IMG/VR virus record: IMGVR_UViG_3300028840_002691 | Coordinates: 1-64,000 of that record | Direction: 5' to 3' (one strand) | DNA: 64,000 bases | Source of the DNA: a virus | In this document: piece by piece, positions 29,595 to 63,801 of the stretch | Layout of the letters: every line of letters starts with the position of its first letter | Numbering within the stretch: the first letter of the stretch is position 1 | Position numbers and translations under genes: made by a program | Notes under the pieces: model-generated | Databases searched by the model: none | Told to the model about the DNA's origin: nothing | What the model saw: only the letters and a program-made list of their open reading frames with translations

Positions 29595-29604
29595 GCAGCT
29601 TGAC

Positions 29605-31997: not shown

Positions 31998-32007
31998 GGA
32001 ATGATTT

Positions 32008-32118: not shown

Positions 32119-32129
32119 TTTAGTAAAAG

Positions 32130-50534: not shown

Positions 50535-50858
50535 ATGGCTGTAACAGCAGTTTGCAACGCTAACGTTATTCACGTTACAAATCTCAATGCGGATTGGGCC
50601 TGGTCTACGACCTTGCCAGCGAGAGGCAGTGGAATACGGGTAGAGAGCATACAGTTTAACCCGACTGCCGCCTCTGATAGGTGTGTTATGCTGGATGGGG
50701 CCAGTGGTACCACCATAATGGATGTCACCTGCGCTGATACAACCGATTCCAGGGTGAAGTATTTCTATGGGCAGAAGTTGAGGCCTGTTTTTGACTTCTC
50801 GCAGAGCGTTATCAGTGGCACTTCCACCGACGGTCACATTATCATCATGACGAGGTAA
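50535..50858 (+). CDS. Small putative virion protein
   Basis: AGGAG RBS, beta-rich, head module, SGTT and SGTS. Confidence 0.6.
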   Translation: MAVTAVCNANVIHVTNLNADWAWSTTLPARGSGIRVESIQFNPTAASDRCVMLDGASGTTIMDVTCADTTDSRVKYFYGQKLRPVFDFSQSVISGTSTDGHIIIMTR

Positions 50859-50888
50859 GGCAGCTGGTGATTCTGTTGAAAGGGCTAA

Positions 50889-51947
50889 ATGGCAAAGACA
50901 GCGAATGAGATCTTTAGGGACTGGCTCTTACGTCACTCACACTACTTGGGCAGGGTTGAAAATGGGGCAATCCGCGAGATGGTTGCTCCGTACCAGCGAG
51001 CGAGGCAGGAGATATATGACAGGCTGGCAGATCAAGCAAAATGGACAGGCAGGACACGAGAATGGAGAATAGCACGGCTCAATGCTCAGCTTGCGGAGGT
51101 GGAGGGTGCTCTGCAGGCTGCGGCGCTGGACTCGGCTGGCTCACTGCAGCAGACTCTGAGGGAGCTGGCCTATACGGAGGCCGACCTGCAGGCTGCGATG
51201 CTTGCTGGGCCATTTGGACGGGTGGGGGTGGATATCGTCAGCCTGCCCTATGCGCAAATAGAGCAGATACTGGACGAACCGTTGATATACCAATACAGGG
51301 GCATGACTCCAGCAGACAGTATGCTCTGGGGCAACAAGAAGGCTGTTGACGCTATGAGGCAGGAGCTGACACAGGCTGTTATTTCTGGGGAGGATATGGC
51401 TAGGGCTTCTAAAAGACTTGTGAACCCACTGACTGCAACTATGAAAGGTGTTGCCTACGAACAAATAGCACGGAGGGCGACGATAATAGCACGCTCTGAG
51501 ATAATGCACGTGAGTAACTCGGTGTCCAGAAGGGTCTTTAACGAGAACCAGGACGTCATGAAGGGCTGCATGTACACAGCCACTCTTGACAGGAGGACTT
51601 GTTTGATCTGCGCTTCTGACGATGGTCGGTTCTTTCCATACAAGGACGGCATCGATCACGAAGGTCCACTTTTGCCTAGGCATCCGCTGTGTCGGTGCTG
51701 TTACAGCCCCGTGACTAAATCCTGGACTGAACTCGGCGCAGACGCTAAAACTCAGACAGGCAAGGATTACTTCTCAGGCAAGAGGCCAGAGGTGATCACC
51801 TACAGTGACTGGCTGAAGAAGCAGCCTGATGATGTGCTGAAGGAGATACTTGGGCCTGCAAGAATGAAGCTCTGGAAGGAAGGCAAGATCACTCTTTCCA
51901 AGATGGCTACTGACAAGAAAGTGATTGCTGTAAAGGATTTGAAATAA
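50889..51947 (+). CDS. Head morphogenesis protein (SPP1 gp7 / Mu gpF family)
   Basis: IARSE, ATLDRRTCLICASDDG, PRHPLCRC, TYSDWLKKQ. Confidence 0.9.
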   Translation: MAKTANEIFRDWLLRHSHYLGRVENGAIREMVAPYQRARQEIYDRLADQAKWTGRTREWRIARLNAQLAEVEGALQAAALDSAGSLQQTLRELAYTEADLQAAMLAGPFGRVGVDIVSLPYAQIEQILDEPLIYQYRGMTPADSMLWGNKKAVDAMRQELTQAVISGEDMARASKRLVNPLTATMKGVAYEQIARRATIIARSEIMHVSNSVSRRVFNENQDVMKGCMYTATLDRRTCLICASDDGRFFPYKDGIDHEGPLLPRHPLCRCCYSPVTKSWTELGADAKTQTGKDYFSGKRPEVITYSDWLKKQPDDVLKEILGPARMKLWKEGKITLSKMATDKKVIAVKDLK

Positions 51948-51979
51948 TGCCAGTCCACACAGGAAAAGACAACAATTAA

Positions 51980-52885
51980 ATGATTAAAAAGAAAAAATAT
52001 CGTAAACTCAAAATGAGACTTTGCCAATGTGGATGCGGCCAAGCTTGCTATAATAGATTTGTCAAAGGTCATGCAAATAAAGGTAAAAAATTTTCCAAGC
52101 TACATAAAGATAGAATAGCTATCTCTCATAAGAAAAGATCCAAAGAAACAAGTAGACGTGTAAAAGCTCAATGGGAGGATGATAATTATAGAAGTAGAAT
52201 TTGTAAATCTATGAGTATTTATGCTCAAAATAGATCTAATCACCATAAATTTAATTTACAAAAATCTATTTCGACAGAGGAATGTAAAAATAAACAATCT
52301 ATTGAGGCTAAAAGACGGTGGAAAGATCCTGATTATCGGAATAGAGTGTCTTTAGGGGTATCACAATCTGTTAAAAAAAATTGGGATGATAATCCTGACA
52401 GGAAAATTAAAACTAGCAGAAGGATGAAAGAACTGTGGGCTGATCCAGATAGTATTTATAATTCAGATTGGTTTCATAATATGAATTCTAAGAAAGTAAC
52501 TAATTTGTATATTGAAGGTAAACTTTGCAAAGTTGGCAAAGGTAAATCAGGCTATTTCTTTTCCAAAAAGAACAATAAAAAACTTTGGTATAGATCTTCT
52601 TACGAATTAATAGCTTATGAATTGTTAGAACAATTATCTAAAGTGAAAAGTTATGAAGTAGAACCATTTAGTATTCAATATGAATGGAAAAATTCAATCC
52701 ATAGAACTATACCAGATATTTTGGTTACTTATATTGATAATAGTAAGGAATTAATTGAAGTTAAACCACGTTTTAAATTTGATATTAAGAAAGAACAGAT
52801 TAAATTAAATGCTATGAAAGAATATGCAGAAAATCAAGATTGGTCTTTTTCTATATGGTCTGAAAAGGAATTAGATGCCGGTTGA
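51980..52885 (+). CDS. Free-standing homing-endonuclease-like gene (NUMOD-like repeats + TnsA-N-like PD-(D/E)xK domain)
   Basis: CQCGCG..FVKGH, W.D..YR repeats, YRSSYE, PDILV..LIEVKP; markedly AT-rich. Confidence 0.8.
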   Translation: MIKKKKYRKLKMRLCQCGCGQACYNRFVKGHANKGKKFSKLHKDRIAISHKKRSKETSRRVKAQWEDDNYRSRICKSMSIYAQNRSNHHKFNLQKSISTEECKNKQSIEAKRRWKDPDYRNRVSLGVSQSVKKNWDDNPDRKIKTSRRMKELWADPDSIYNSDWFHNMNSKKVTNLYIEGKLCKVGKGKSGYFFSKKNNKKLWYRSSYELIAYELLEQLSKVKSYEVEPFSIQYEWKNSIHRTIPDILVTYIDNSKELIEVKPRFKFDIKKEQIKLNAMKEYAENQDWSFSIWSEKELDAG

Positions 52886-53381
52886 GGTTGGTAATGATAG
52901 TAGGGGATGTTTTGCAAGATGGGGTAATAGCGGGAAGAAGTACTACTACTCATGCGGCAACACAGCAGCCATGGACAAGGCCAAGCAAAAGGCTCATATA
53001 CAGGGTGCAGCAATAGGAAAGGAAACAATGAAGGAAGCTGAACTCAAAGAAGCAGAACTTGAACTCACAGCGGAAGGCTATCTGGTTGAGGCCACAAGGC
53101 CACAGGACAAGCCAGGTGGCTCCAGTGTGGGCAAGTACAAAGGGGTGAAGACATTTTGTGGGCCAGCCGGAGGAGCACCAAAGGGCAGCTTTCCGGTGAA
53201 TACTCGTAAACGAGCGGTCGCGGCATTGGCCTATGCACGCAACGCTCCCAACCCAGCAGGCATAAAGGCTTGCGTCTGTAGGCACTATCCGGATCTGCCT
53301 GCCTGCAAGAAGAAGGCAACGGCTAGTGAGAAACCTGATCTAATCGTGGAGGCAATAAGCAGAGGGAACTGGAATGGCTAA
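52875..53381 (+). CDS. Head-module hypothetical protein
   Basis: RWGNSGKKYYY..QGAAI; FCGP..SFPV..AALAYA. Confidence 0.65.
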   Translation: MPVEVGNDSRGCFARWGNSGKKYYYSCGNTAAMDKAKQKAHIQGAAIGKETMKEAELKEAELELTAEGYLVEATRPQDKPGGSSVGKYKGVKTFCGPAGGAPKGSFPVNTRKRAVAALAYARNAPNPAGIKACVCRHYPDLPACKKKATASEKPDLIVEAISRGNWNG

Positions 53382-53819
53382 GTGCTTATGCAGTTATGGT
53401 TGTGGTAGGGTTGGAAGATATTTGTTCAAGAATGGCAAATGGTGTTGTGAGAAAAATGCTGCACAGTGTCCAGTTTCACCGAGGAGCACCAACATAAAAT
53501 GAGAAAGGCATTTTCACTTAAACCGAACAAACCAGAAAGGAAGTTAAATCGGATCTTACAAAAAATGTTTCCAAATGAGTATAGATATGTTGGTGACTTC
53601 CAATTTTTTCTTGGTGGGAAGAACCCAGACTTTATGAATATAAACGGACAGAAAAAGTTGATTGAAGTTTTTGGCGATTATTGGCACAGAAATGATAATC
53701 CTGAAGACAGGATAAATCATTTCAAAAAATATGGCTTTAGCACTTTGGTTATTTGGCAAAGAGAATTAGAGAATAAGGAACATTTGGTGAAAACTTTAAC
53801 TGAATTTCATAAGAGGTAA
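53374..53819 (+). pseudogene. Split/frameshifted Vsr(DUF559)-like homing endonuclease
   Basis: 53374-53502 MAKCLCSYGCG..KWCC..QCP in one frame; PNKPE..PDF..IEVFGDYWH..VIWQRE in another. Confidence 0.65.
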
Positions 53820-53824
53820 GGGGA

Positions 53825-55225
53825 ATGGATAAAAAAGTTTTACAAACAAGGGAGATGACTGAGGAAGTAGAAGCCCCTTTTTCTGCTGTAACTGAAGCAG
53901 GTATAGATACTGATAACCACATGCTTAGCGGTGTGTGTATTTTTGGGACTAAAAAGAGCAAAAACAATCGTATCTATACAAACAAAGCAGTAGAATCTCT
54001 GGCTTCTCTTACAGAGGGAGCAAAATGTTATGTTGACCATCCTACACATGACGAGTTAAAGCAGCGGGACGGAACTCGTTCGATTAAGGACTGGATCGGT
54101 GTGTTTGAATCTTCTAGAAGGCAGGGAGACAAAGTTTTTGCAAACCTTCGCTGTAGAGAAGCATATTTCGATCTCCTTAAGGACGTTGCGTTACTCCAGC
54201 CTAAAGGCGTCGGAATGAGTATTAATGCTCGTGTAAAGGTTTTTGCTGATGAAAAGGGCATGGAAAGTGTTGAAGATATTGATTTTTTGAAGTCGGCAGA
54301 TTTAGTTTCGTCAGCGGCCTGCACATCTTCTATCTGGGAGGGTCTACAAGAAAAAGTAGAAGAAGAGAACAATAAACCTGAACAAAGGGAACGTCTTGTC
54401 ATTGTGCCCGAGGCAGTGGAGCGGAACGTTGAGTTGCTCTTCGTGCAGGAGGGCATCATACAGGACAAGTTGAACAATGACAAAATCAGAAGCGAGATAA
54501 ACGATATCGCTTACACGGCCAACAGGCTCATAGAAAATATCGTTTACGACGAGAAGCTCTCAATCACTGACAAGAAGAAGAAGGTGATCGCAGTGTTTGA
54601 CGACCTGAGCAAGGAAGTCAAGAAGAGGGTTTCTGGAATCAAGGAGTCTAAGGACTACTACGAAGAGGAGGATGAAGAGATGGATCTAAATAAACTGAAG
54701 ACTGAACATCAGGACCTTGTCGAGGCAATCATCGCTGAGTACAAGGAGACCGAAGAGGTCAAGAGCATGAAAGCTGATCTCTCCGAGGCCCAGGATCAAC
54801 TGAAGGCCAAGGACGAGACCATTGAAACACAAACCAAACAGATCGAGGAGCTCAAGAAAGAGAACACCGATCTGAAGACTCGTATGGACGAGATTGAGCT
54901 TCAGGAGAAGGTCTCCGAGAAGAAAGATCTCATGAACCGCCTCATCAAGGAAGCACAGCTCAAGGACGAGTATGTGTCCGACATCTTCATGGCTAACCTT
55001 ATGGCCCTGGAGGAGTACAAGAACGATGAGGAAGAGGCTGTTACGGTCGAAGAGCAGGCCAAGGCCATGATCACCGACCGCAAGCAGCTGGCCGAGAGCG
55101 GCTCCGGCAAGGTCAAGGGCTCAGGTGACGAATTCACAGAGGGGAACGAGGACGAAAAAGAGAAAGCCCAAAAGGTCACCGAGCAGGATGTGGATGACTT
55201 TGCTGGCAAGATCAACAAACGCTAA
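53825..55225 (+). CDS. Prohead protease-scaffold fusion
   Basis: SKNNRIY, YVDHP, GMSINA, SADLV, then acidic coiled coil; upstream of capsid genes. Confidence 0.8.
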   Translation: MDKKVLQTREMTEEVEAPFSAVTEAGIDTDNHMLSGVCIFGTKKSKNNRIYTNKAVESLASLTEGAKCYVDHPTHDELKQRDGTRSIKDWIGVFESSRRQGDKVFANLRCREAYFDLLKDVALLQPKGVGMSINARVKVFADEKGMESVEDIDFLKSADLVSSAACTSSIWEGLQEKVEEENNKPEQRERLVIVPEAVERNVELLFVQEGIIQDKLNNDKIRSEINDIAYTANRLIENIVYDEKLSITDKKKKVIAVFDDLSKEVKKRVSGIKESKDYYEEEDEEMDLNKLKTEHQDLVEAIIAEYKETEEVKSMKADLSEAQDQLKAKDETIETQTKQIEELKKENTDLKTRMDEIELQEKVSEKKDLMNRLIKEAQLKDEYVSDIFMANLMALEEYKNDEEEAVTVEEQAKAMITDRKQLAESGSGKVKGSGDEFTEGNEDEKEKAQKVTEQDVDDFAGKINKR

Positions 55226-55246
55226 ACCACACTGGATAGATACTCT

Positions 55247-55309
55247 CTTAATAGGGGATACTATCTCTGTTATTCGGTATCGTGGTTTAAGTGATTCTAT
55301 TCTAGGAGG
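55247..55309 (+). promoter_or_regulatory. Conserved leader (hairpin + 33-nt block + RBS), copy 1
   Basis: gtatcgtggtttaagtgattctattctaggagg at 55277-55309 is identical to 55937-55969. Confidence 0.6.
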
Positions 55310-55324
55310 TTGAAAGAAACGACT

Positions 55325-55891
55325 ATGTCAGGAAACAACAGACATCTCAGAGGAGATGTAAACGCTATCAAGATGCCCGTCCACGGCGCTACGGTTGTGG
55401 AGCCTGGGGATTTGCTGGTCTACGGTGGCGATACAAACATCTGGACCGCTCACAGCGACTCCAGGGCCGACTACTATGCGTATCCGGTCAGCGGCATCAC
55501 CGGCTCAGCTGGTATGGGCGGCACGGGAACGCTTTGCATCGCTAAGAACCATTTCTGCGGCATTGCCCTGTCAGGTTCGAAGAGTGGCACCACAGAGGAC
55601 ATCACGGTGGCTCTTACGGGTACGTTCCGCTATCCGCTGCGCAACATACCAGGCAAGGACGGCTCCAAGACCTGCGGCACCACAGTGGGGCTGAAGGTAT
55701 CGATGGTGACTCCGGCCTCCGTCACGGTGGCTGGGCCTTCGGACCAGGCTGTGTGCATCGCTACTCACAGCGGCACCAGTGCCTACATCGGCTACTGCAT
55801 TATGAACAGCAGCGGCGGTGGCACAAAGGGTGGTACCAGCTATGTGGACTTCGTGCTGAAGAGCAAGTGGGGTCTTGGGCTGGCTACCTAA
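55325..55891 (+). CDS. Capsid decoration/cement-like protein, paralog 1
   Basis: GATVVEPGDL, G/S/T-rich, between scaffold and MCP. Confidence 0.7.
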   Translation: MSGNNRHLRGDVNAIKMPVHGATVVEPGDLLVYGGDTNIWTAHSDSRADYYAYPVSGITGSAGMGGTGTLCIAKNHFCGIALSGSKSGTTEDITVALTGTFRYPLRNIPGKDGSKTCGTTVGLKVSMVTPASVTVAGPSDQAVCIATHSGTSAYIGYCIMNSSGGGTKGGTSYVDFVLKSKWGLGLAT

Positions 55892-55907
55892 GCAGTGAAG
55901 AATAGGT

Positions 55908-55969
55908 ACTTAATAGGAGATGCTTTTTCTATTCAAGTATCGTGGTTTAAGTGATTCTATTCTAGGAGG
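55908..55969 (+). promoter_or_regulatory. Conserved leader, copy 2
   Basis: Same hairpin position and identical 33-nt block. Confidence 0.6.
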
Positions 55970-55977
55970 AAAAGAAA

Positions 55978-56565
55978 ATGTCAGGAAACAACCGATATCT
56001 CAAAGGAGATATCAATTCAATTAAGCTACCAGTCCACGGAGCCACTGTGGTGGAACCTGGTGACTTGCTTATATTGGGAGCTACTACGGAGACCCAACAG
56101 CACCGTAAAGCAGAGGGTGTGGCTGATTACTATGCGTATCCGTTCAGCGGTGTCACCCGTGAAACTGGTGAGGGAGTCATCCGACTCTGTAAGAACTGGT
56201 TCATCGGTGTGGCGATGAGCGGCTCGGCAAGTGGCACTACCAATGAGGTTACAGTGGCCACTTCGGGCATGTTCCGCTATCCGCTGCGTAACATTACTGC
56301 CAAAGAGGGTGCTTTGACCTGCGGCACAACGGTTGGCTACATAGTCAGTGCTGCTACGCCTACGGCTTCCACAACGAGTGGCTGTTCGGCGCAGGCGGTA
56401 ATGATCCAAGGCCATGGCGGGGCGTCGGCTGCTGTTGATGGTGGTTCTACTGCCTTCTTAGGCTACTGTGTGATCACCAAGCCAGCAGGCACCAAGACTG
56501 GCGGCGCAAGCTATGTGGACTTCACTATCAGGACCAAGTACGGGCCTGGAGGACTGGTAACGTAA
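55978..56565 (+). CDS. Capsid decoration/cement-like protein, paralog 2
   Basis: MSGNNR..PVHGATVVEPGDL..ADYYAYP..FRYPLRNI shared with paralog 1. Confidence 0.7.
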   Translation: MSGNNRYLKGDINSIKLPVHGATVVEPGDLLILGATTETQQHRKAEGVADYYAYPFSGVTRETGEGVIRLCKNWFIGVAMSGSASGTTNEVTVATSGMFRYPLRNITAKEGALTCGTTVGYIVSAATPTASTTSGCSAQAVMIQGHGGASAAVDGGSTAFLGYCVITKPAGTKTGGASYVDFTIRTKYGPGGLVT

Positions 56566-56569
56566 GAAG

Positions 56570-57088
56570 ATGGCTAATGTTCAACGCTGGGACCACGGAG
56601 CAAAGCATGTAATTCACGTCACTGTGAAAAGTGGCACCACCGTGGAGACGGGGGACTTGATGTTCCTGGATGACACTGACGGTCTGCGTGAGGAGGGCGC
56701 TTCCACAGCAGACTTCAGCGCTTACCCTATGGAGCACCTGAGGCCGTCGGCAACTCTCAGCACAAACAAAGGCTACCTGGAAACGCGCTTTCTGGGTGTG
56801 GCATTGACCGACAAAGACGGTGGCACCAACAAGCCGCAGGAGGCAATGGCTATCGCCACGGGAGGTATTTTTGAGTTTGACCTCAAGCCAGCAAGAACTG
56901 TGAAGGTGGGTTACTATGCTGGGCCGTCGGGTACGACGAGCGGGTCAAACATGTTCAACCAGAAGATGATGGTTGAAGCAGAAGCAAATAAAGCCCACTG
57001 TTATGGATATTTCGTTGAGTACAAGACCCATGCCCAATCGGCTTTGGTCGAAATAAAAACGCAACATGGGGATGGGATGATATCGTAA
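56570..57088 (+). CDS. Capsid decoration/cement-like protein, paralog 3 (divergent)
   Basis: TVETGDL, ADFSAYP, FLGVAL, ATGGIFEF. Confidence 0.7.
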   Translation: MANVQRWDHGAKHVIHVTVKSGTTVETGDLMFLDDTDGLREEGASTADFSAYPMEHLRPSATLSTNKGYLETRFLGVALTDKDGGTNKPQEAMAIATGGIFEFDLKPARTVKVGYYAGPSGTTSGSNMFNQKMMVEAEANKAHCYGYFVEYKTHAQSALVEIKTQHGDGMIS

Positions 57089-57106
57089 CAAGGAGGGTAT
57101 AGAACA

Positions 57107-58183
57107 ATGGCACTAAATCCTACAGGTTCTCCGATCAAGGAGCTTGTGGAATCGAAAGGGGCGCAAGGTGCTCAGGAAGTGATCCGCGAGGGTCTGAAGC
57201 AGAAGAAGTTCCAGCCGGAGCACTTCTCACTTCAAGAGATCTGGGAAGCCACCTGCGGGCCTGTGAGTCAAATACAGGAGCAAGTGGTTGCGGACTCCTT
57301 TCCGAAGATCACCGGAGAGCTTATCAACGCAAAGATCATCGCTGGCTACGACAGCGTGGCGATGATTGGCGACCAGCTCTGCACCACGGTTCCAAGCAAG
57401 CTGAAGACCGAGACCGTAGCAGGCTTTACGGATGCTGAGGTTCCGGACTTCATTCCTGAAGCCGGAGAGTACAACGACTCCACAGTGACAGAGAAATACG
57501 TCACCATGCGCAATAAAAAGTATGGGAAGTTGATCTCCATCACCGAGGAGATGATCCTCTTCGATCAGTCTGGTCAGGTGATGACCAGAGCGCAGAGGAT
57601 CGGCGAGAAGGCAGCGCAGTACAGAGAGAAGACCATAGTGGAGGGCGTTCAGGACATCAACAGCTCAGTCTGGAACCCATCCGGCGTGGCTACGGCTTTC
57701 TACAGCGCCACCAACGGCAACCTCGCCACCAGCAACGCTTTCAATGAAGGCGGGCTGGAAGCCGTGCGCAAGCTGATGCAGCAGATGAAGGACGACTCCG
57801 AGCACAGCGACAGCAACGACTACATCCTCATCAACGAGGCCAACATGATCCTGTTGGTTCCTGTGGATCTGGAGCTTGAGGCGTGGCAGATGGTTAACTC
57901 TACTCTGACGCCCGAGTCGGCTGAGAATGCGTCCAACTTTTTCCGTGGGCGGTATCGGGTGCTGACCAGTCCTTACGTCACAAACCAAAGCGCCACCACG
58001 TGGTTCCTGGGCGACTTTAGGCAGGACTTCTGGTGGAGCGAGGTATGGCCGCTGCAGACATTTTCACGCGCGGCTGGCAACAGCGACGAGTTCAAGCGAG
58101 ACATCAAGAGCATGCACAAGGTCCGCTACTATGGCACGATCGGTGCCGTGGACGTAAGGCATAGCTTCAAATCTACTGCTTAA
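57107..58183 (+). CDS. Major capsid protein (HK97 fold, Mu gpT-like)
   Basis: FPKI, EAGEY, KYGKLISITEEMILFD, LLVP..L, SPY, WFLGD. Confidence 0.88.
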   Translation: MALNPTGSPIKELVESKGAQGAQEVIREGLKQKKFQPEHFSLQEIWEATCGPVSQIQEQVVADSFPKITGELINAKIIAGYDSVAMIGDQLCTTVPSKLKTETVAGFTDAEVPDFIPEAGEYNDSTVTEKYVTMRNKKYGKLISITEEMILFDQSGQVMTRAQRIGEKAAQYREKTIVEGVQDINSSVWNPSGVATAFYSATNGNLATSNAFNEGGLEAVRKLMQQMKDDSEHSDSNDYILINEANMILLVPVDLELEAWQMVNSTLTPESAENASNFFRGRYRVLTSPYVTNQSATTWFLGDFRQDFWWSEVWPLQTFSRAAGNSDEFKRDIKSMHKVRYYGTIGAVDVRHSFKSTA

Positions 58184-58334
58184 TCTCGTGTAGCTGTGTG
58201 TTACACGTAGGCAAGAGAGATAGGGAGGAGTTTTGTAGCCGGAACTTCACTCTGTGCGGCTGGGCTTCTTCTCCTTCCTAGTCTTTCTTTACAGCAATTA
58301 GAAGAAGACAACATAGCACGAGGAGGACTATATT

Positions 58335-58847
58335 ATGGCTAGACGAGGACCAGGACGAGGATCTCGCATGGGCAAGGGTGTGCTTTCGGGCAGCACTCTG
58401 GCTGTGCACCCGTCCGGCGTAACGATAGACAAACAGGGTATCGAGTATACTGCTGGTGTTGTTGTAACTCCAACTGAACTTGGTTACTTGGATGGGCAGG
58501 CGGGGTATGGGCTTGCTTATACTTCAGCAGCAGGGTACAGAATTGCCTATGGACTGACGGACTTCGCAGGCAGCGGCAAGCCTCTTGAAGGCACCCTGTC
58601 CGTGAGCAACGTGCTGTCCGTAGACACAGGGCTGACAACGGTGTTGGGTTTTTGGCCTAGCATTTATGATGCCACTTCTGACATGCACAAGCTGTCGGCA
58701 AGTGCATTTCTGACCTGGCAGAAGAACCTGACCACGACTTCAGAGGTGACGGTGATCTCTTTGATTGATGCTGGTGCGGCAGGCACAACGCCGTACTTCT
58801 TGTTCAATAAGGGAGTTTCCTGTTCGTGGATCGCTTTCGGCACATAA
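58335..58847 (+). CDS. Putative virion structural protein, tandem paralog A
   Basis: AGGAGG RBS; near-identical N-terminus to next gene; ends WIAFGT. Confidence 0.7.
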   Translation: MARRGPGRGSRMGKGVLSGSTLAVHPSGVTIDKQGIEYTAGVVVTPTELGYLDGQAGYGLAYTSAAGYRIAYGLTDFAGSGKPLEGTLSVSNVLSVDTGLTTVLGFWPSIYDATSDMHKLSASAFLTWQKNLTTTSEVTVISLIDAGAAGTTPYFLFNKGVSCSWIAFGT

Positions 58848-58865
58848 TACAAGGAGGACTACATT

Positions 58866-59393
58866 ATGGCGAGTACATGGAGAAGAGGCCCTGGACGTGG
58901 ATCACGTATGGGCAAAGGTGTGCTTTCGGGCAGCACTCTCGCTGTGGTGCCTTCGGGTGTTACGATCGACAAACAGGGCATTGAGTATTCAGCAGGCACG
59001 TTCATAACACCTACTGAAATCGGATATCTAGACGGTCAGGCTGGCTACGGGGTCGCCTACACCACTGCGGCAGGGTACAGAGTGGCCTATGGGTTGACAG
59101 ATGTGGCTAACAGCGGTGTAAGCCAGGGCACTGGCTCTGTGAGCAGTATTCTGGAAGTGGCCACTGGGTTGACAACGGTGCTTGGCTTTTGGGGTAGTGT
59201 TTACGATGCCACTTCAGATATGCACAAGTCATCTGTTAGCATATACCTGGATTGGCAGAAGAACGCGACATACACTTCCAGGGTGACTGTGGTGACCGCT
59301 GTAGAGGCTGCTGCAGCTGGTACTGGTGGTGCAACTCCGTACAATTTGTTCAACACAGGGGTGTCACTGTCTTGGCTGGCTTTTGGGACATAA
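58866..59393 (+). CDS. Putative virion structural protein, tandem paralog B
   Basis: RRGPGRGSRMGKGVLSGSTLAV shared; ends WLAFGT. Confidence 0.7.
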   Translation: MASTWRRGPGRGSRMGKGVLSGSTLAVVPSGVTIDKQGIEYSAGTFITPTEIGYLDGQAGYGVAYTTAAGYRVAYGLTDVANSGVSQGTGSVSSILEVATGLTTVLGFWGSVYDATSDMHKSSVSIYLDWQKNATYTSRVTVVTAVEAAAAGTGGATPYNLFNTGVSLSWLAFGT

Positions 59394-59401
59394 ACCACAG
59401 C

Positions 59402-59439
59402 GCAGAGAACCACAGTCTGTGCACACTGTGGTTCTCTGC
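59402..59439 (+). terminator. Perfect 15-bp hairpin after the structural genes
   Basis: gcagagaaccacagt-ctgtgcac-actgtggttctctgc followed by AT-rich sequence; U-tract is weak. Confidence 0.6.
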
Positions 59440-59488
59440 TTAATATATATCTGAACTGCTGGTTGCATGTTTTTGAAGGGGGGCAAAA

Positions 59489-61573
59489 TTGGAATGGGTA
59501 CTTGCTTGTTTTACACTGACGCTGATAGCAGCACCTCTGGTGTTTGCTCCGTTGAAGTTTATTGATGGCTACATATTACCACAGCTGGCAGTGCACGCCA
59601 TTGGGTTGGGGGTTGCCTTTGTGGGCATGGTGCAGTTGGGAGTGTTCCCACTGAGCTTGCTGTCATTGCTGGTATGTCTTTACTTTGTCTATATGGTTAT
59701 GACTACTTTCTGGTCTACAGCTACTCACGCCTCTTTACGGGATCTGCCTCTCGTGTTCAACGGGTTGGCTGCCTTTCTTGTGGCCTCTGTGCTCTTCCGC
59801 AGTAGCGCGCTGAACATGGTCACGGTTTCCTTGGGTGTTTTCTTTGTTAGCACTATCACTTGTATTTACTGCATTGGGCAGCGGTTGCGTATTGATCCTG
59901 TGTTCAAGGAGCGGCTGGTGTCAGCGGCGGTGGACTTCAAAGGCTTGCCCAGACAGAGGATACCCAAGTGGTTCAGGAACAAGAACTTTATTGACTCCAG
60001 ACCGATAGGCACGATAGGCAATACGAATTTTGTCTCAGGTTACTTGGGCTCTACTGTACCGTTCTTGGTTTTTTTGTCTGTGGAGGTGTCGCCGTGGTTC
60101 CTGTTGAGCATTCTGTTGGTTGTGGTCACTGTAACTATGGCCGAATGCAGGGCGGCGCTGCTGGGCATGTTTTGTAGTGGTCTGGTATTTCTGCTGATTG
60201 CCTCAAGGGCAGGGCTGGTGATTGACTTTGTGGTGTGGTTGTTTTCTTTTGAGTTGGTGCGACTGCTTTCTGTAATCGGTGCAGTGTATGTGCTGTTGTT
60301 TCTTGTGGATGCGATATGCAGGCTGCACAAGGGAGGAGTGTTCAGGATGTTGAACGCAGAGACTCCTCTCACCTCGGAGTTGTCAGTGGAGAGCGAGGAC
60401 CAGGAGGACCTTGTGGCTCACTTGCGGTACAGGTTCCGCTATTGGAAGGCGGCGTGGGAGTTGCTGAAGCAGAAACCGTTGCAGGGTTTTGGGCTCAGGA
60501 CGTTTAGGAAAGAAGTATATCAAGCACAAGCAACTTTACACAACAGGGACGGCAAGTTCTTAGGTCTTGGCTACCAGACTCCACAGCCCAGGGAGTGCCA
60601 CAATGACTATGTGGAGAACTTTGTTGAAGGTGGGTTGGTCGGTGGGTTGATGTTTCTGGCTATACTTGCGGTTGTGTTTTACAATGCCTGGGTCTACTTG
60701 TCTTCGGTGGTTGCGGTAGACTTCTTGCTGGTGGCTGGAGTGCTGTCTGGTTTCCTCTGCCTGCTTGTGGTGGCGTTCTTCTTTTTCCCGTTCAGGCTAC
60801 CAGCATCAGCGGTGCTGTTCTGGGTTGGGCTGGCGTTGCTGGACTCCATGACTACCGATGTAGCAATAGTGACATTTGAGTCGAACATCTTTCTGACTCT
60901 GCTGGTGGCTGGTGTGTTGGCTGCGCTGTTGTGGGAGGGGAGCATAAAGCCGAACGCAGCGAACTTCTACTTCAACAAGTACAGCTTCTCACGTGACATG
61001 ATGCTGCGGGAGAAGTTTCTGATAAAGGCGACGGACTTCTCGCCTAGAGAAACGATATTCAGAACTCATGCTGCGGTAAACTACTCGGAGACAGTGCCGT
61101 CGTTTGCCGAAAAGCATGCCAATGTGATGAGCTACTTCTATGACGGCATGACTCCGGCTTGGATGATGTTCTACAATGTGGCTATGGTGAAGGCAGCCAA
61201 TGGTAAGTTTGAAGAGGCCATAGAATATTTGAACCATTCACTTTACTACTTTCCGAGGTTTAAGCCCGCCTTGCAGTTCATGCAGATGATCTGGGCTGAA
61301 GCAAAGATGCCAGAAAGGAGGATCTTGATGAAGAGGATGACTAAGGAGGGCCTGCTTGCTATCAAGCTGCATCGCACGGAGGCCGAAAAGCACAACATGG
61401 CGATAGAGAACATCATCTTGCAGGAGAAGGTGAAATCGAACATACCGATAGAGTGGTCCTTTGACCTGAAGGAGGGTGTATTTCTGACTCCTACTGAAGC
61501 AGAAAACCTACGTAGAGAGAGACAGAAAGAAATGGGCGGAGGATTGAGTCTGGTACCTGGAACAAATGCTTAG
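59489..61573 (+). CDS. O-antigen ligase / O-oligosaccharyltransferase family (Wzy_C) membrane protein with C-terminal TPR-like region
   Basis: Many TM helices; GTIGNTNF, CRAALLG, RFRYWKAAWEL..KPLQGFG, HNDYVE..EGGLVG, FFFP. Confidence 0.85.
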   Translation: MEWVLACFTLTLIAAPLVFAPLKFIDGYILPQLAVHAIGLGVAFVGMVQLGVFPLSLLSLLVCLYFVYMVMTTFWSTATHASLRDLPLVFNGLAAFLVASVLFRSSALNMVTVSLGVFFVSTITCIYCIGQRLRIDPVFKERLVSAAVDFKGLPRQRIPKWFRNKNFIDSRPIGTIGNTNFVSGYLGSTVPFLVFLSVEVSPWFLLSILLVVVTVTMAECRAALLGMFCSGLVFLLIASRAGLVIDFVVWLFSFELVRLLSVIGAVYVLLFLVDAICRLHKGGVFRMLNAETPLTSELSVESEDQEDLVAHLRYRFRYWKAAWELLKQKPLQGFGLRTFRKEVYQAQATLHNRDGKFLGLGYQTPQPRECHNDYVENFVEGGLVGGLMFLAILAVVFYNAWVYLSSVVAVDFLLVAGVLSGFLCLLVVAFFFFPFRLPASAVLFWVGLALLDSMTTDVAIVTFESNIFLTLLVAGVLAALLWEGSIKPNAANFYFNKYSFSRDMMLREKFLIKATDFSPRETIFRTHAAVNYSETVPSFAEKHANVMSYFYDGMTPAWMMFYNVAMVKAANGKFEEAIEYLNHSLYYFPRFKPALQFMQMIWAEAKMPERRILMKRMTKEGLLAIKLHRTEAEKHNMAIENIILQEKVKSNIPIEWSFDLKEGVFLTPTEAENLRRERQKEMGGGLSLVPGTNA

Positions 61574-61600
61574 AAAGAGAAAGGAAGGAGACACGAGAAA

Positions 61601-62023
61601 ATGACCTTGATGGATGATTTGAGAGAAAAGGCAGCCAAGGGAACAAAAATCACTTCCGAAGAGCTGGAAGAGGCCCGCAAGGAGATGGCAATAGGCAATG
61701 CGGCTGACGCTAAGGAGGAGAAAGAAGAAAACCAGAAAGAGGAGCAAAAACCTGAGAAGGCACCACCTCCTCCTGAGCCAGAACCCGAGAAGCCTATAGT
61801 GTTTTCCTTTGACGAGTTTGTGCAGAAGAACTTAGGCACATTTAACAGGGTTACACGTTCCGTGTGGAGGAGCAACGTCACGCTGCTGGCTAATATGTTC
61901 CTCTCCATAGAGATAAGAAATGAGTTGAAGGCTATCAGACGTCTTTTGGAAGTAAAGCAAACCACAAAGCCAGAAGAATTAGCAACAGGAAAGGAGAAGC
62001 CAAAAAGGAAACCTAAAAAATGA
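61601..62023 (+). CDS. Hypothetical charged protein
   Basis: AAGGAG RBS; coupled to next gene. Confidence 0.6.
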   Translation: MTLMDDLREKAAKGTKITSEELEEARKEMAIGNAADAKEEKEENQKEEQKPEKAPPPPEPEPEKPIVFSFDEFVQKNLGTFNRVTRSVWRSNVTLLANMFLSIEIRNELKAIRRLLEVKQTTKPEELATGKEKPKRKPKK

Positions 62024-62421
62024 GCTATACTCATTCACCAGAGACCGACGAGGGGCGTCTCCGTATACTTTTATATGACGTAGTACCAAGCGGAACCAGC
62101 GCAGCTATAGGCTCAAACTACCACTTTGAGGACGCCGATCTGTCTGCCCTGCTGGATATGAACAGTGACGACCTTTGGGCTAGTGCTGCTGATGGATGCC
62201 GAGCTATGGCTGCAAAGCTCGCTGACGAGGCCATAGCCTTGGGACTTGGAAAGACAGACATCTACGTAGACAAGAGAAAGAAGCCGGACTTTTACCTAAA
62301 ACTGGCAGCAGAGTACCAGGAACGTTCCTACACTGACGTTGACGAGTACATTGACTCAATAAACTACGGCGTGAGCTACACGGGATTTGACGATACAGAG
62401 TACTTTGGTGACTACGAATAA
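62020..62421 (+). CDS. Head-tail adaptor-like protein
   Basis: GRLRILL.D..FED.DL pattern; position after MCP. Confidence 0.65.
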   Translation: MSYTHSPETDEGRLRILLYDVVPSGTSAAIGSNYHFEDADLSALLDMNSDDLWASAADGCRAMAAKLADEAIALGLGKTDIYVDKRKKPDFYLKLAAEYQERSYTDVDEYIDSINYGVSYTGFDDTEYFGDYE

Positions 62422-62831
62422 TGTCGATACTGACTTCTCAGGAGATAGCGGACATCACAAGCGACATACATGAGATAGTGACTGATGTCGAGCTGAGCAC
62501 CAGGATCACTTACAGGCTGGCTGGGGTGACAGCGGAGACCTCCTACGATCCGACCACTCAAGCCATACCGAGCATGTTTTCGACCAGCTCCGTGAGCGCG
62601 TTCAAGGGCACTTACAGCCTGGACGAGGCTGCCCAGTCAGGCGGACTGATAGAGTATGGGGATGTGAAGTTCATCGTAATGCGCTCTCATGTCACTGGTA
62701 TTTTGGGCACAATAGACCAGGTGTTCGAGAGCGGCAGCAGCGTGCAGAGCGGCACCACATACCAGGTAGTTGGTTCGCTGAGCTATGATCCGTTGAAGAT
62801 CTGCTACTTCATACATTGCAGGGCGGTATGA
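62421..62831 (+). CDS. Head-closure-like protein
   Basis: ITYR..YDPTT..GDVKF beta-rich pattern; synteny. Confidence 0.6.
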   Translation: MSILTSQEIADITSDIHEIVTDVELSTRITYRLAGVTAETSYDPTTQAIPSMFSTSSVSAFKGTYSLDEAAQSGGLIEYGDVKFIVMRSHVTGILGTIDQVFESGSSVQSGTTYQVVGSLSYDPLKICYFIHCRAV

Positions 62832-63310
62832 AAGTTACCATTGATGTTGAGACGGAAAAGTTTAACAGGAAACTGAAAAAGTTTTTGAAGAACAGCAATG
62901 TTGAGGTAGGAAAAGGAGTAAGAAAAGCAGCTTTGGATTTGCTCTTTATGATTCATAGGCCAAAACCTCACGGCACTCATCCGGTCGAGACCGGTAGAGC
63001 GAGAGGCGCTTGGGCAGCATCGATGGAGGGTCTTGGTGGCAGGTTCAATTACCATAAAGGAGTAGATCCATCAAGAGATCAAGTAGCCATGGGGAGAAAA
63101 GAAGGCGGCTTCGTAAACAAACTCAAGAACAAGTACTTCAAATATGTGGAGCTTATAAATGGCTGCCCATACATCATATATCTTGAATACGGACATAGCA
63201 AGAGCGCCCCTGCTGGAATGGTCAGGATATCTTTACGCGAGATGCGGGGTATGAAAATCACCGACAAGTACTTCAAGCCAGTTTTTCTGAAGGAGTGGAA
63301 TAAACTGTAA
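62828..63310 (+). CDS. HK97 gp10-like neck/tail-completion protein
   Basis: PVETGRARGAW, N..PYIIYLEYGHSK.APAGMVR. Confidence 0.85.
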   Translation: MKVTIDVETEKFNRKLKKFLKNSNVEVGKGVRKAALDLLFMIHRPKPHGTHPVETGRARGAWAASMEGLGGRFNYHKGVDPSRDQVAMGRKEGGFVNKLKNKYFKYVELINGCPYIIYLEYGHSKSAPAGMVRISLREMRGMKITDKYFKPVFLKEWNKL

Positions 63311-63801
63311 TGGCACTGGACATACTGGCAGAACGAGCAAACGTAAAGCGCAGCCTTGAGAGCTACTTTCATGGTATCTTTGGTCCCTCCGGCAAGGACT
63401 TCTACGTGGACTACGAGGGCGTGCCGTTTGAGACGAAAGAGAAGCGTGAGTGGCTGCAGCCACGAGTGATGGACTTCAGCGGCGAGTTCCTGCGACAAGG
63501 CTCCGCAACACAGTACGCCACCAATGTGAACATGATGTTCAATGTGAATATACTGGTTACAAAAAGCGGCACCACAATAGCCGACAGACACTACGTGCTC
63601 AGGGACAAAGTCGTAGAGCATTTTAAGATAGGGCAGACCATAAACATACGCAACTGGACCAGCGGCACCACTCCGCTGGCGATTTTAGGCAAGATGAAAG
63701 TGAGGCAGCTGATAACCGACCGCCCAATCGAGGATGAGCATTTTCTGCAGTACTCACTAACGTGGGAACTTGATTGGTTAGATTTAACAACTAATCCATA
63801 A
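63310..63801 (+). CDS. Tail terminator-like protein
   Basis: Synteny after gp10-like gene; VDYEGVPF..EWLQP. Confidence 0.6.
   Translation: MALDILAERANVKRSLESYFHGIFGPSGKDFYVDYEGVPFETKEKREWLQPRVMDFSGEFLRQGSATQYATNVNMMFNVNILVTKSGTTIADRHYVLRDKVVEHFKIGQTINIRNWTSGTTPLAILGKMKVRQLITDRPIEDEHFLQYSLTWELDWLDLTTNP

What the first reader, a model, noticed from the sequence alone, without database searches (positions are those of the whole stretch)
50535..63801. S-G-x-[S/T] motif concentrated in small virion proteins: candidate phage glycosylation sequon
Seen: by hand I count 20 S-G-x-[S/T] motifs (8 exactly SGTT) in nine proteins totalling ~1440 aa: 50535 (SGTT, SGTS), 55325 (SGIT, SGTT, SGTS), 55978 (SGVT, SGTT, SGCS), 56570 (SGTT x2), 58335 (SGST, SGVT), 58866 (SGST, SGVT, SGVS), 62020 (SGTS), 62421 (SGSS, SGTT), 63310 (SGTT x2). 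Near-variants CGTT, AGTT and AGVT also occur. TerL, portal, gp7, protease-scaffold and MCP (~2270 aa) have none. The carriers include unrelated families (decoration, adaptor, closure, terminator), so paralogy explains only part of it. Inference: a convergently acquired acceptor sequon on exposed virion surfaces, modified by the phage's own glycan machinery.
Basis: partly seen in the sequence, partly recalled or inferred. Interest (0 to 1): 0.88.

Follow-up and report, generated by a model that had tools for sequence, protein, structure and literature searches.

The report
Sugar-attachment motif on phage virion proteins
An uncultured marine phage and all its relatives carry the four-residue motif Ser-Gly-(Val/Thr/Ala)-(Thr/Ser) about nine times too often in loops of their outward-facing particle proteins, and it occurs together with a membrane sugar-ligase gene set among the particle genes, so it is most likely an address tag for coating the virus with sugars, though no sugar has yet been shown.

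Summary
The nine ORFs hold 20 S-G-x-[S/T] motifs against 3.0 expected, and 17 more lie in tail genes just beyond the window.

Defined on the whole clade, the motif is S-G-[V/T/A/C/S]-[T/S]. It is order-specific and is selected at the protein level, not the DNA level.

All 25 relatives found through the capsid gene with at least 46% capsid identity share the enrichment (SG[TVAISC][ST] 5.7-13x). So do three contigs binned into genome assemblies (10-12x). Fifty-five more distant relatives do not (1.5x).

The enriched clade is the one that carries a conserved 700-aa O-antigen-ligase-like (Wzy_C) membrane protein with a TPR-like tail between its capsid and neck genes, plus nonulosonic-acid synthesis genes.

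The carriers are capsid cement proteins, small post-capsid proteins, tail tube proteins and some connectors. In the two proteins modelled, all six motifs lie in loops, most just before a strand.

Best reading: an O-glycosylation sequon read by the Wzy_C enzyme. No chemistry has been shown.

This scan had already flagged the same motif on other DNA, including a 112-kb phage that is probably a member of this clade.

The parts
50535..50858 (+). 107-aa small protein of the structural block, no family assigned. Motifs at aa 57 (SGTT) and 94 (SGTS).
   Evidence: 2 vs 0.14 expected. No Pfam or PHROG hit. Its homologue in L011 (32% identity) sits directly upstream of the Wzy_C gene and also has 2 motifs.
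55310..55891 (+). Capsid cement/decoration protein, paralogue A1 (193 aa). Motifs at aa 61 (SGIT), 92 (SGTT) and 154 (SGTS).
   Evidence: AF2 model has pLDDT 79 and pTM 0.81, and all three motifs lie in loops, two of them directly before strands. Foldseek hits capsid cement/decoration proteins of phiCD508, E217, phi29 gp8.5, HFTV1, Pam3 and TW1, with weak E-values of 3e-3 to 5e-2. The SG[TV]T site at aa 92 is present in 16 of 18 orthologues.
55978..56565 (+). Capsid cement/decoration protein, paralogue A2 (195 aa). Motifs at aa 57 (SGVT), 85 (SGTT) and 134 (SGCS).
   Evidence: It is 55% identical to 55310.
56570..57088 (+). Capsid cement protein, paralogue B (172 aa). Motifs at aa 21 and 120 (both SGTT), at positions different from those in the A paralogues.
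   Evidence: Weak Phage_cement_2 hit. Alignment A4 shows SGTT where the A paralogues have HGAT, and no motif where the A paralogues have their conserved one.
57107..58183 (+). Major capsid protein (358 aa). No motif.
   Evidence: Phage_capsid_4 at 1.4e-28. PHROG major head/protease families. One motif in 16 orthologues.
58335..58847 (+). Small post-capsid virion protein (170 aa). Motifs at aa 18 (SGST) and 27 (SGVT) in a conserved basic N-terminal arm.
   Evidence: In alignment A6, S21, G22, T24, G31, V32 and T33 (numbering of 58866) are invariant in 8 sequences at 32-77% identity.
58866..59393 (+). Paralogue of 58335 (175 aa). Motifs at aa 21, 30 and 83.
59489..61573 (+). 694-aa polytopic membrane protein with an O-antigen-ligase (Wzy_C) domain and a C-terminal TPR-like domain. 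It is the candidate transferase that reads the motif.
   Evidence: Wzy_C at 1.1e-14, 54.9 bits against a cut-off of 31.7. About 13 hydrophobic segments. Thirty full-length homologues with invariant R315, Y318, R337, R340 and H371-N-D. The same position in the structural operon in all 19 viral contigs found. Atlas neighbours are Wzy_C+TPR proteins.
62020..62421 (+). 133-aa connector-region protein (the adaptor position). One motif at aa 24 (SGTS).
   Evidence: phrog_1732, weak. Motif in only 5 of 16 orthologues.
62421..62831 (+). Head closure protein Hc1 (136 aa). Motifs at aa 104 (SGSS) and 110 (SGTT).
   Evidence: phrog_161 at 1e-6. Eighteen motifs at 6 different alignment columns in 12 orthologues.
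62816..63310 (+). Tail completion/Neck1 protein (164 aa). No motif.
   Evidence: phrog_169 at 1.4e-12. One motif in 12 orthologues.
63310..63801 (+). 163-aa neck/tail-proximal protein. Motifs at aa 86 and 118 (both SGTT).
   Evidence: 2 vs 0.06 expected, p=0.0009. In the 53%-identical homologue P0002, KSGTT is kept and the second site reads GGTT. Orthologues carry 0-2 motifs at 5 columns.
8409..37094 (+). Glycan-synthesis island: two NeuB, two CMP-sugar cytidylyltransferases, two DegT and one class III aminotransferase, three SDR dehydratase/epimerases, WbqC, PIG-L deacetylase, a PseG-like GT28 domain, three to four sulfotransferase-like proteins, methyltransferases, GT2 (26552-27445) and GT4 (29605-30750).
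   Evidence: Pfam. Only the nonulosonic-acid core and a non-orthologous GT2 recur in relatives G001 and G002.

Best explanation
S-G-[V/T/A/C/S]-[T/S] is an acceptor sequon for O-glycosylation of the outward-facing proteins of the virion: capsid cement proteins, small post-capsid proteins, tail tube proteins, some connectors and distal tail proteins.

The enzyme that reads it is most likely the clade-conserved Wzy_C (O-antigen-ligase/PglL-PglS-like) membrane protein with a TPR-like tail, encoded between the capsid and neck genes. It would transfer a phage-specified glycan containing a nonulosonic acid (sulfated in this particular phage) from a lipid-linked donor onto Ser/Thr in loops of folded virion proteins.

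Shown here: the motif statistics, the motif's sharp definition, its restriction to one clade, its co-occurrence with the Wzy_C gene and the nonulosonic-acid genes, its loop location and its positional turnover.

Inferred: that the motif is modified at all, that the modification is a glycan, which enzyme does it, and on which side of the membrane. The reversed charge bias of the enzyme suggests its catalytic loops and tail face the cytoplasm, where virions assemble.
For: 1. Enrichment in this phage. The nine ORFs hold 20 motifs against 3.0 expected. The structural block holds 37 against 8.3, and 34 against 3.4 for SG[TVAISC][ST]. The phage's other genes show 1.8x and 1.2x.
2. Not generic. The structural modules of lambda, HK97, RcKemmy and Che8 show 1.1-2.0x.
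3. Sharp, order-specific motif across the clade (493 vs 113). Position 1 is S only (T/A/G/N/D/C at most 1.5x). Position 3 is V 18x, T 12x, A 7x, with charged residues about 1x. Position 4 is T 5.7x and S 3.1x, with A/G/N/V about 1x.
4. Clade test. All 19 loci found through the Wzy_C protein are enriched (4.5-14.7x). All 25 loci with MCP identity of at least 46% are enriched (5.7-13.4x). The 55 loci with MCP identity of 39% or less pool to 1.55x. Wzy_C is present in every in-clade locus that extends far enough and in 0 of 55 out-clade loci. Four near-complete out-clade genomes have no Wzy_C and no NeuB, and one of them has four GT2 genes yet no motif. Three further contigs binned into genome assemblies show 10-12x.
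5. Carriers are external proteins. Cement, post-capsid and tube proteins carry 2.4-2.9 motifs per sequence. MCP, Neck1, the chaperone and the 53825-like protein carry 0.06-0.25. MuF, tape measure and the Wzy_C protein carry none in this genome and almost none in the relatives inspected.
6. A few sites are conserved and many are sporadic: 53 distinct columns in 6 families. Paralogues carry the motif at different places.
7. All six motifs in the two AF2 models lie in loops, most just before a strand. The folds match capsid cement (weakly) and tail tube proteins.
8. Wzy_C/TPR is the only glyco-enzyme with conserved architecture and synteny in the clade. The GT2s are 25-40% identical with different architectures.
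9. Precedent. The Wzy_C-family O-OTase PglS modifies the fourth residue of S-G-A-S in ComP (PMC8457361; PMC12645811 Table 1).
10. Charge bias. The catalytic-loop side of the phage family carries 17.4 K+R against 1.6 on the other side. E. coli WaaL is the opposite, 5 against 18.
Against: - No chemistry: the phage is uncultured (found in sediment and seawater metagenomes), so no glycopeptide has been seen.
- The association with Wzy_C and the nonulosonic-acid genes rests on one clade, which is a single evolutionary event.
- All characterised Wzy_C enzymes act on the periplasmic face, while tailed-phage particles assemble in the cytoplasm.
- The cytoplasm-facing topology proposed here rests only on a K/R count with hand-set helix boundaries. 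Those charges could instead bind an acidic glycan or Und-PP.
- The phage encodes no initiating phosphoglycosyltransferase (Bac_transf) and no Wzx flippase, so a lipid-linked donor would need host enzymes.
- No PglL_A or Wzy_C_2 domain was reported.
- Some motif sites are highly conserved inside well-conserved segments (for example KSGTTxADRHY), which would also fit a structural role.
Confidence: 0.5

Rival explanations
1. The motif is a glycosylation sequon, but it is read by a soluble cytoplasmic glycosyltransferase from the glycan island (GT2 26552, GT4 29605 or an unassigned protein such as 22255 or 11018). That enzyme would add sugars stepwise from nucleotide sugars, as in mycobacteriophage virions and flagellins. 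The Wzy_C protein would then do something else, such as remodelling the host surface.
For: Virions assemble in the cytoplasm, and GT2 and GT4 are soluble. CMP-nonulosonate synthesis genes are the conserved core of the island. Every clade genome examined, other than the 41%-complete fragment G004, has some GT2. Earlier notes of this scan link similar [S/T]-G-x-T motifs in other phage lineages to GT2-type enzymes (unchecked).
Against: No island transferase is conserved as an orthologue. The GT2 of G002 is a 652-aa GT2-radical SAM fusion only 25% identical to the one here, and GT4, the GT28-like protein and 22255 are specific to this genome. Despite this, the motif is the same across the clade. 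No Maf-type enzyme is present. An out-clade 104-kb relative has four GT2 genes and shows no motif. This reading does not explain why a Wzy_C gene is fixed inside the morphogenesis operon of every member.
Confidence: 0.2
2. The motif is not a glycan site. It is a short structural or interaction element (a Ser-Gly turn leading into a beta-strand) or the target of another modification or partner, such as a kinase, a cross-linking enzyme or the docking site of a shared accessory protein. It would be inherited and amplified in this clade for assembly reasons.
For: The flanks suggest a loop-to-strand junction: P or K before the motif, then I/L/V/E and alternating hydrophobic residues after it. Several sites are conserved within conserved blocks. 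No modification has been shown.
Against: Unrelated folds carry it, including cement, tube, Hc1, the post-capsid arm and 900-aa repeat proteins. Sites turn over between orthologues and paralogues while their number is kept. Internal proteins of the same particles lack it. Structural modules of four other siphophages and of 55 distant relatives with the same capsid fold show no such bias. The strict Ser at position 1 together with a hydroxyl residue at position 4 is typical of an enzyme recognition site.
Confidence: 0.2
3. The enrichment is an artefact of composition (G/S/T-rich loops), of paralogy, or of a DNA-level word such as AGYGGCACCAC.
For: In this genome the motif codons are skewed: AGY 64% vs 41%, GGC 51% vs 34%, ACC 39% vs 21%. 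The word GGCACCAC occurs 12 times on the coding strand. Two carrier pairs are paralogues.
Against: Per-protein shuffles never reach the observed count. Reversed and permuted motifs are not enriched. Removing one member of each paralogue pair still leaves SGxT the top pattern (17 vs 3.7). The DNA word is in frame 0 in 11 of 12 cases. Relatives show no codon skew in the motif: AGY 32% vs 37%, GGC 17% vs 17%.
Confidence: 0.02

Closest known systems
PglS-ComP O-glycosylation of Acinetobacter (Wzy_C-family O-oligosaccharyltransferase; glycotag CTGVTQIASGA-S-AATTN)
   Same: The enzyme belongs to the Wzy_C superfamily. The acceptor is an internal Ser in a context of small residues, and the modified Ser is the fourth residue of S-G-A-S, which fits the motif found here (PMC8457361; PMC12645811). 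The acceptor genes lie next to the enzyme gene.
   Different: PglS has one natural substrate (a pilin), needs about 11 residues of context and acts in the periplasm. Here a four-residue motif recurs on a dozen unrelated cytoplasmic virion proteins. The enzyme has a TPR-like tail and a reversed charge bias, and it shows no detectable sequence similarity to solved ligases.
PglL-type general O-glycosylation (Neisseria, Burkholderia, Acinetobacter)
   Same: One Wzy_C enzyme glycosylates many proteins en bloc with relaxed glycan specificity. That would fit the variable glycan islands seen in this clade.
   Different: PglL has no defined sequon and prefers disordered Ala/Pro/Ser-rich stretches (PMC12645811). 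No PglL_A domain was reported here. PglL's targets are periplasmic or surface proteins of the cell, not virions.
Virion glycosylation of mycobacteriophages Che8, Corndog and Myrna (Freeman et al. 2023, PMC10527164; known here only through citations, since the paper is not held)
   Same: Phage-encoded sugar genes and, by my own knowledge of that paper, glycosylated capsid and tail tube subunits.
   Different: By my own knowledge, that system uses soluble glycosyltransferases and no short sequon was defined. The structural proteins of Che8 show no SGx[ST] enrichment (1.3x). That system has no Wzy_C enzyme in the morphogenesis operon.
Bacteroidota general O-glycosylation sequon D-(S/T)-(A/I/L/V/M/T) and the N-x-S/T sequon of N-glycosylation (established knowledge)
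   Same: A short, strict acceptor code that is scattered over many unrelated exposed proteins and gained and lost freely in evolution. Wzy_C+TPR proteins are common in Bacteroidota.
   Different: The motif is different, the targets are cellular and extracytoplasmic, and those codes have been proven by mass spectrometry.
Flagellin O-glycosylation with pseudaminic/legionaminic acid by Maf enzymes
   Same: A nonulosonic-acid pathway (NeuB, DegT, dehydratase, CMP-transferase) decorates the exposed surface of a self-assembling protein polymer in the cytoplasm.
   Different: No sequon is known for Maf enzymes (PMC12645811), and no Maf (PF01973) is encoded here or in relatives.

Membership tests
Wzy_C / O-antigen ligase superfamily (PF04932) | Match to the family profile above the curated cut-off | tested here: met
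   54.9 bits against a cut-off of 31.7, E=1.1e-14, residues 207-390. All 30 homologues carry PF04932.
Wzy_C / O-antigen ligase superfamily (PF04932) | Polytopic membrane protein with a large loop after about the ninth helix that bears conserved Arg and His residues | tested here: met
   Thirteen hydrophobic segments, nine of them before the loop at 276-382. R315, R337, R340 and H371 are invariant in 17 sequences.
Wzy_C / O-antigen ligase superfamily (PF04932) | Catalytic loops on the periplasmic face (N-terminus in the cytoplasm) | tested here: inconclusive
   The K+R count is reversed relative to E. coli WaaL: 1.6 on the N-terminal side against 17.4 on the catalytic side, where WaaL has 18 against 5. 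This is only a charge count with hand-set boundaries.
Protein O-oligosaccharyltransferases (PglL / PglS / TfpO) | Accessory PglL_A or Wzy_C_2 domains that separate O-OTases from WaaL ligases | tested here: not met
   The Pfam scan at E<=0.001 reported Wzy_C only.
Protein O-oligosaccharyltransferases (PglL / PglS / TfpO) | Acceptor protein gene(s) adjacent to the enzyme gene | tested here: met
   Motif-rich genes flank the gene on both sides in all 19 viral loci and in the 3 contigs from genome assemblies.
Protein O-oligosaccharyltransferases (PglL / PglS / TfpO) | Lipid-linked (Und-PP) glycan donor made by an initiating phosphoglycosyltransferase and flipped by Wzx | tested here: inconclusive
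   No Bac_transf and no Polysacc_synt (Wzx) in this genome or in four relatives. Host enzymes could supply these functions. WecA-type PF00953 was not searched.
Protein O-oligosaccharyltransferases (PglL / PglS / TfpO) | Demonstrated transfer of glycan to Ser/Thr of a protein | not testable with these tools
   Needs mass spectrometry or a gel-shift assay.
Glycosylation sequon (a short acceptor code, as in N-x-S/T) | Short, position-specific motif enriched on target proteins and absent from non-targets | tested here: met
Glycosylation sequon (a short acceptor code, as in N-x-S/T) | Located in exposed loops, with gain and loss of sites between relatives | tested here: met
   All six motifs in the two models lie in loops. 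There are 53 distinct columns in 6 families. Solvent exposure in the assembled particle was not computed.
Glycosylation sequon (a short acceptor code, as in N-x-S/T) | Presence tied to presence of the modifying machinery | tested here: met
   In-clade 5.7-13.4x with Wzy_C and NeuB, against out-clade 1.55x without them. This is a single clade, so a single contrast.
Glycosylation sequon (a short acceptor code, as in N-x-S/T) | Residue in the motif actually carries a glycan | not testable with these tools
   The phage is uncultured and no proteomic data are available.

The most novel reading that the evidence does not exclude
A phage-borne O-antigen-ligase homologue has flipped its membrane orientation, so that its catalytic loops and TPR tail face the cytoplasm. 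There it would take un-flipped lipid-linked glycan, which explains why no flippase is needed or encoded. It would then stamp the glycan onto folded or assembled virion proteins at a strict four-residue O-sequon, S-G-[V/T/A]-[T/S]. This would be the first defined O-glycosylation sequon for a Wzy_C enzyme and the first en-bloc glycosylation pathway acting in the cytoplasm.
Probability: 0.2. Interest if true: 0.95.

Novelty: new variant of a known kind. Interest (0 to 1): 0.8.

Why it matters
Direct evidence for virion glycosylation in tailed phages comes so far, to my knowledge, mainly from a few mycobacteriophages, and no acceptor code is known.

Here the sequence alone yields three things:
- a sharply defined tetrapeptide;
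- the set of particle proteins that carry it;
- a single candidate enzyme conserved in a clade of about 25 uncultured marine phages.

That makes a clean test possible: co-express the enzyme with one small carrier and look for a mass shift.

If confirmed, it would have several consequences:
- It would give the first strict O-sequon for an O-antigen-ligase-family enzyme, which is useful for glycoengineering and bioconjugate work.
- It would show that phages can cloak capsid and tail with acidic nonulosonate or sulfated glycans. This is relevant to adsorption, to sticking to particles and mucus, and to recognition by grazers or immune systems.
- It might reveal an inverted-topology ligase.

This scan has also flagged similar [S/T]-G-x-T motifs in several unrelated phage lineages. 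Virion sequons may therefore be widespread and readable from genomes.

Tried and rejected
- **DNA-level motif.** The codon skew in this genome and the in-frame word GGCACCAC were followed up in relatives, which show no skew. Rejected.
- **Composition artefact.** Rejected by shuffles and by permuted motifs.
- **Generic property of virion proteins.** Rejected by four control phages and 55 distant relatives.
- **blastn and tblastn against GenBank phages.** There were no close relatives. The capsid protein gives only 24-28% matches to Rhodobacter, Paracoccus, Shewanella and Methanoculleus viruses.
- **PHROGs and Pfam on the carriers.** Mostly no hits.
- **Scans of viral contigs with single proteins 63310 and TerL.** Nothing useful found.
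- **Sequence search of solved structures with the Wzy_C alignment.** Only weak TPR matches, and no ligase structure reached.
- **Complex prediction** of the Wzy_C protein with the post-capsid protein 58866: no answer. This is not evidence either way.
- **Sequencing runs.** No RNA holder is listed.
- **Freeman et al. 2023** could not be read.
- **Maf, Bac_transf and Wzx families.** Not found in five genomes.
- **Out-clade loci with moderately raised ratios** (L054, L065-L068, L075). Their few motifs are scattered and mostly have charged or bulky residues at position 3, in portal, MCP and other proteins, so they were judged to be noise.
- **Host.** The three contigs from genome assemblies that carry the clade are labelled Pseudomonadota, Planctomycetota and archaeon. 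At 62-111 kb they are evidently mis-binned phage contigs, so no host can be inferred.

Full report
**What the window is**

The window is the first 64 kb of a 105,094-bp single-contig virus record. Nearly all of the record is coded on the + strand. The same DNA is held in full by one sediment and one seawater metagenome from two studies, so this is an uncultured marine phage. GenBank phages contain no close relative.

**The observation**

- Shuffling each protein 20,000 times gives 2.99 +/- 1.68 motifs in total and never more than 12. SGTT is expected 0.19 times.
- An unbiased list of all a-b-x-c patterns and 4-mers in the structural block ranks SGxT first (p=6e-9) and SGTT first among 4-mers. 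SGxT stays first after one member of each paralogue pair is removed.
- The enrichment is order-specific. The reversed motif scores 0.6x, GSx[ST] 1.45x and SxG[ST] 1.1x.
- Position 3 is almost always T, V, A, I, S or C. SG[TVAISC][ST] occurs 34 times against 3.4 expected in the structural block, and 4 times against 3.35 in the other 120 proteins, whose few SGx[ST] are mostly P-loop-like SGK[ST].
- The motif continues past the window end into the tail genes, with 17 more copies at genome positions 63817-76005.

**Gene identities**

Other assignments are as follows.

| Coordinates | Identity | Evidence |
|---|---|---|
| 57107-58183 | True major capsid protein | Phage_capsid_4, 1.4e-28 |
| 50889 | MuF-like | |
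| 55310, 55978, 56570 | Capsid cement/decoration paralogues | AF2 pTM 0.81; weak Foldseek matches (E 3e-3 to 5e-2) to cement and decoration proteins of phiCD508, E217, phi29, HFTV1, Pam3 and TW1 |
| 62421 | Head closure Hc1 | |
| 62816 | Neck1 | |
| 64046 and 64703 (genome coordinates) | Tail tube proteins | |
| 59489-61573 | 694-aa membrane protein with a Wzy_C O-antigen-ligase domain and a TPR-like tail, between the capsid and neck genes | |

Upstream, 8409-37094 is a sugar island. It holds two NeuB, two cytidylyltransferases, several aminotransferases, several dehydratases, WbqC, PIG-L, sulfotransferases, methyltransferases, GT2 and GT4.

**Is the enrichment generic?**

It is not. The structural modules of lambda, HK97, RcKemmy and Che8 give 1.1-2.0x.

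**Is it a DNA word?**

It is not. In this genome the motif codons are skewed and the word GGCACCAC is in frame in 11 of 12 cases. In relatives the motif uses Ser and Gly codons like any other position.

**The clade**

The Wzy_C protein has about 30 full-length homologues at 35-49% identity. R315, Y318, R337, R340 and H371-N-D are invariant. A scan of viral contigs with their alignment gave 19 loci, including contigs of 101 kb and 112 kb.

Every one of these loci shows the same enrichment: SGx[ST] 2.7-6.8x and SG[TVAISC][ST] 4.5-14.7x.

Their gene order is also the same:

1. MuF
2. a 53825-like protein
3. cement A
4. cement B
5. MCP
6. small post-capsid proteins
7. Wzy_C/TPR
8. adaptor
9. Hc1
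10. Neck1
11. a 63310-like protein
12. tube paralogues
13. chaperones
14. tape measure

A second scan used the capsid alignment and gave 80 loci.

- The 25 loci with MCP identity of at least 46% are all enriched (5.7-13.4x).
- The 55 loci with identity of 39% or less pool to 1.42x for SGx[ST] and 1.55x for SG[TVAISC][ST].
- Wzy_C is found in every in-clade locus that reaches far enough downstream. The seven loci without it end 0.4-3.9 kb after the MCP. It is found in none of the 55 out-clade loci.
- Four near-complete out-clade genomes lack both Wzy_C and NeuB. One of them, at 104 kb, has four GT2 genes yet no motif.
- Three contigs of 62-111 kb binned into genome assemblies belong to the clade and show 10-12x.

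**Definition and behaviour of the motif**

Over 538 in-clade proteins the count is 493 against 113 expected.

| Position | Preference |
|---|---|
| 1 | Ser only; T, A, G, N, D and C give at most 1.5x |
| 2 | Gly |
| 3 | V 18x, T 12x, A 7x, C 6.6x, S 4.5x; charged residues about 1x or less |
| 4 | T 5.7x, S 3.1x; A, G, N and V about 1x |

The flanks favour P or K before the motif and I/L/V/E with alternating hydrophobic residues after it, which indicates a loop running into a strand.

Cement, post-capsid and tube proteins carry 2.4-2.9 motifs per sequence. MCP, Neck1, the chaperone and the 53825-like protein carry 0.06-0.25. MuF, tape measure and the Wzy_C protein carry none in this genome and almost none in the relatives inspected.

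A few sites are almost fixed:
- cement A column 101, present in 16 of 18 sequences;
- both sites in the N-terminal arm of the post-capsid proteins;
- tube column 218, present in 14 of 16.

Many other sites are sporadic, with 53 distinct columns across six families. Paralogues carry the motif at different places: SGTT in 56570 aligns with HGAT in 55310. In the two AF2 models all six motifs lie in loops, most just before a strand.

**Which enzyme?**

Across the genomes G000, G001 and G002, only three glyco-related elements are shared: the nonulosonic-acid core (dehydratase, DegT, NeuB, CMP-transferase), some GT2, and Wzy_C/TPR.

The GT2s are not a conserved reader. The G002 copy is a GT2-radical SAM fusion only 25% identical to the one here. 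The sulfotransferases, WbqC, PIG-L, GT4 and the GT28-like protein are private to this genome. Wzy_C/TPR is therefore the only glyco-enzyme with constant architecture and position, which matches the constant motif.

The Wzy_C family includes protein O-oligosaccharyltransferases. The PglS acceptor in ComP is modified on the fourth residue of S-G-A-S (PMC8457361; PMC12645811). Variable islands combined with one constant coupling enzyme is the pattern expected of an en-bloc transferase with relaxed donor specificity. That last point is inference.

**The topology problem**

Known Wzy_C enzymes work on the periplasmic face, whereas virions assemble in the cytoplasm. The phage also encodes no initiating Bac_transf enzyme, no Wzx flippase and no Maf.

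I counted K+R in the loops of 17 homologues. The side bearing the N-terminus has 1.6 in seven loops. The side bearing the conserved loop 128-183, the catalytic loop and the C-terminal flank has 17.4, not counting the big loop. E. coli K-12 WaaL, treated the same way, has 18 on the N-terminal (cytoplasmic) side and 5 on the other.

By the positive-inside rule, the phage enzyme would face the cytoplasm. There it could use un-flipped lipid-linked glycan and reach virion proteins. This is an inference from a crude count with hand-set helix boundaries. The charges could instead serve to bind an acidic glycan or Und-PP in the periplasm.

**Verdict**

The most likely explanation is an O-glycosylation sequon on exposed virion proteins read by the Wzy_C/TPR enzyme (confidence about 0.5).

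| Alternative | Confidence |
|---|---|
| A soluble transferase reads the same sequon | about 0.2 |
| Non-glycan structural or other modification motif | about 0.2 |
| Artefact of composition, paralogy or a DNA word | about 0.02 |

Nothing chemical has been shown.

Earlier notes of this scan describe the same S-G-x-[S/T] motif with a membrane transferase among particle genes in a 112-kb phage. That phage is probably the contig behind L026. The notes also describe similar [S/T]-G-x-T motifs in unrelated jumbo and T4-like phages. I re-measured only the 112-kb contig.

Noticed in passing
window 48119-49447 and 49429-50508: Two adjacent right-handed beta-helix proteins (Beta_helix, DUF5123; pectate-lyase-like) sit between the portal region and the MuF gene. 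They have no homologue in relatives G001 and G002 and carry no motif. They may be depolymerase-like virion or accessory proteins.
   Followed up: partly
window 51980-55225: A low-GC stretch (43% against about 49-53% on either side) lies inside the structural block. It includes a TnsA-like endonuclease (51980). ORFs 52875, 53466 and 53825 have no family, but 53825 is conserved across the clade, possibly as a scaffold.
   Followed up: partly
window 59489-61573 and homologues P0003-P0032: The K/R charge bias of this O-antigen-ligase-like family is the reverse of that in E. coli WaaL (1.6 vs 17.4 against 18 vs 5). This hints at an inverted membrane orientation.
   Followed up: partly
window 58335-58460 and 58866-59000: The post-capsid proteins start with a conserved basic arm, R-G-x-G-R-G-[ST]-R...G-x-L-S-G-x-T-L-A-V-x-P-S-G-V-T-I-D. 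Both motifs in it are invariant in 8 sequences of 32-77% identity. It would make an ideal test peptide.
   Followed up: partly
L016:14996-17722 and L116:14634-17447: Relatives encode 908-937-aa proteins built of short repeats. They carry 25 and 11 SG[AIV][TS] motifs respectively, often 8-9 residues apart. They are probably fibres or decoration proteins that display many acceptor sites.
   Followed up: no
window motifs, e.g. 56630, 62748, 63565: In this genome only, the motifs prefer the codons AGY-GGC-ACC. Several unrelated genes share AGCGGCACCACA. Relatives show no such skew, and it remains unexplained.
   Followed up: yes
window 15380-16105 and 23829-24494: Two N6/N4 DNA-methylase-like genes are interleaved with the sugar-synthesis genes.
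   Followed up: no
   Followed up: no
genome G000:C1:90953-91891 (outside the window): A 312-aa protein made of 32 consecutive hexapeptide repeats (V-[S/Y]-G-[D/N]-A-Q). These dominate the k-mer statistics of the non-structural genes.
   Followed up: no
L110:1002-2960 (G002): The 112-kb relative encodes a 652-aa fusion of a GT2 glycosyltransferase with a radical SAM domain in its glycan island.
   Followed up: no
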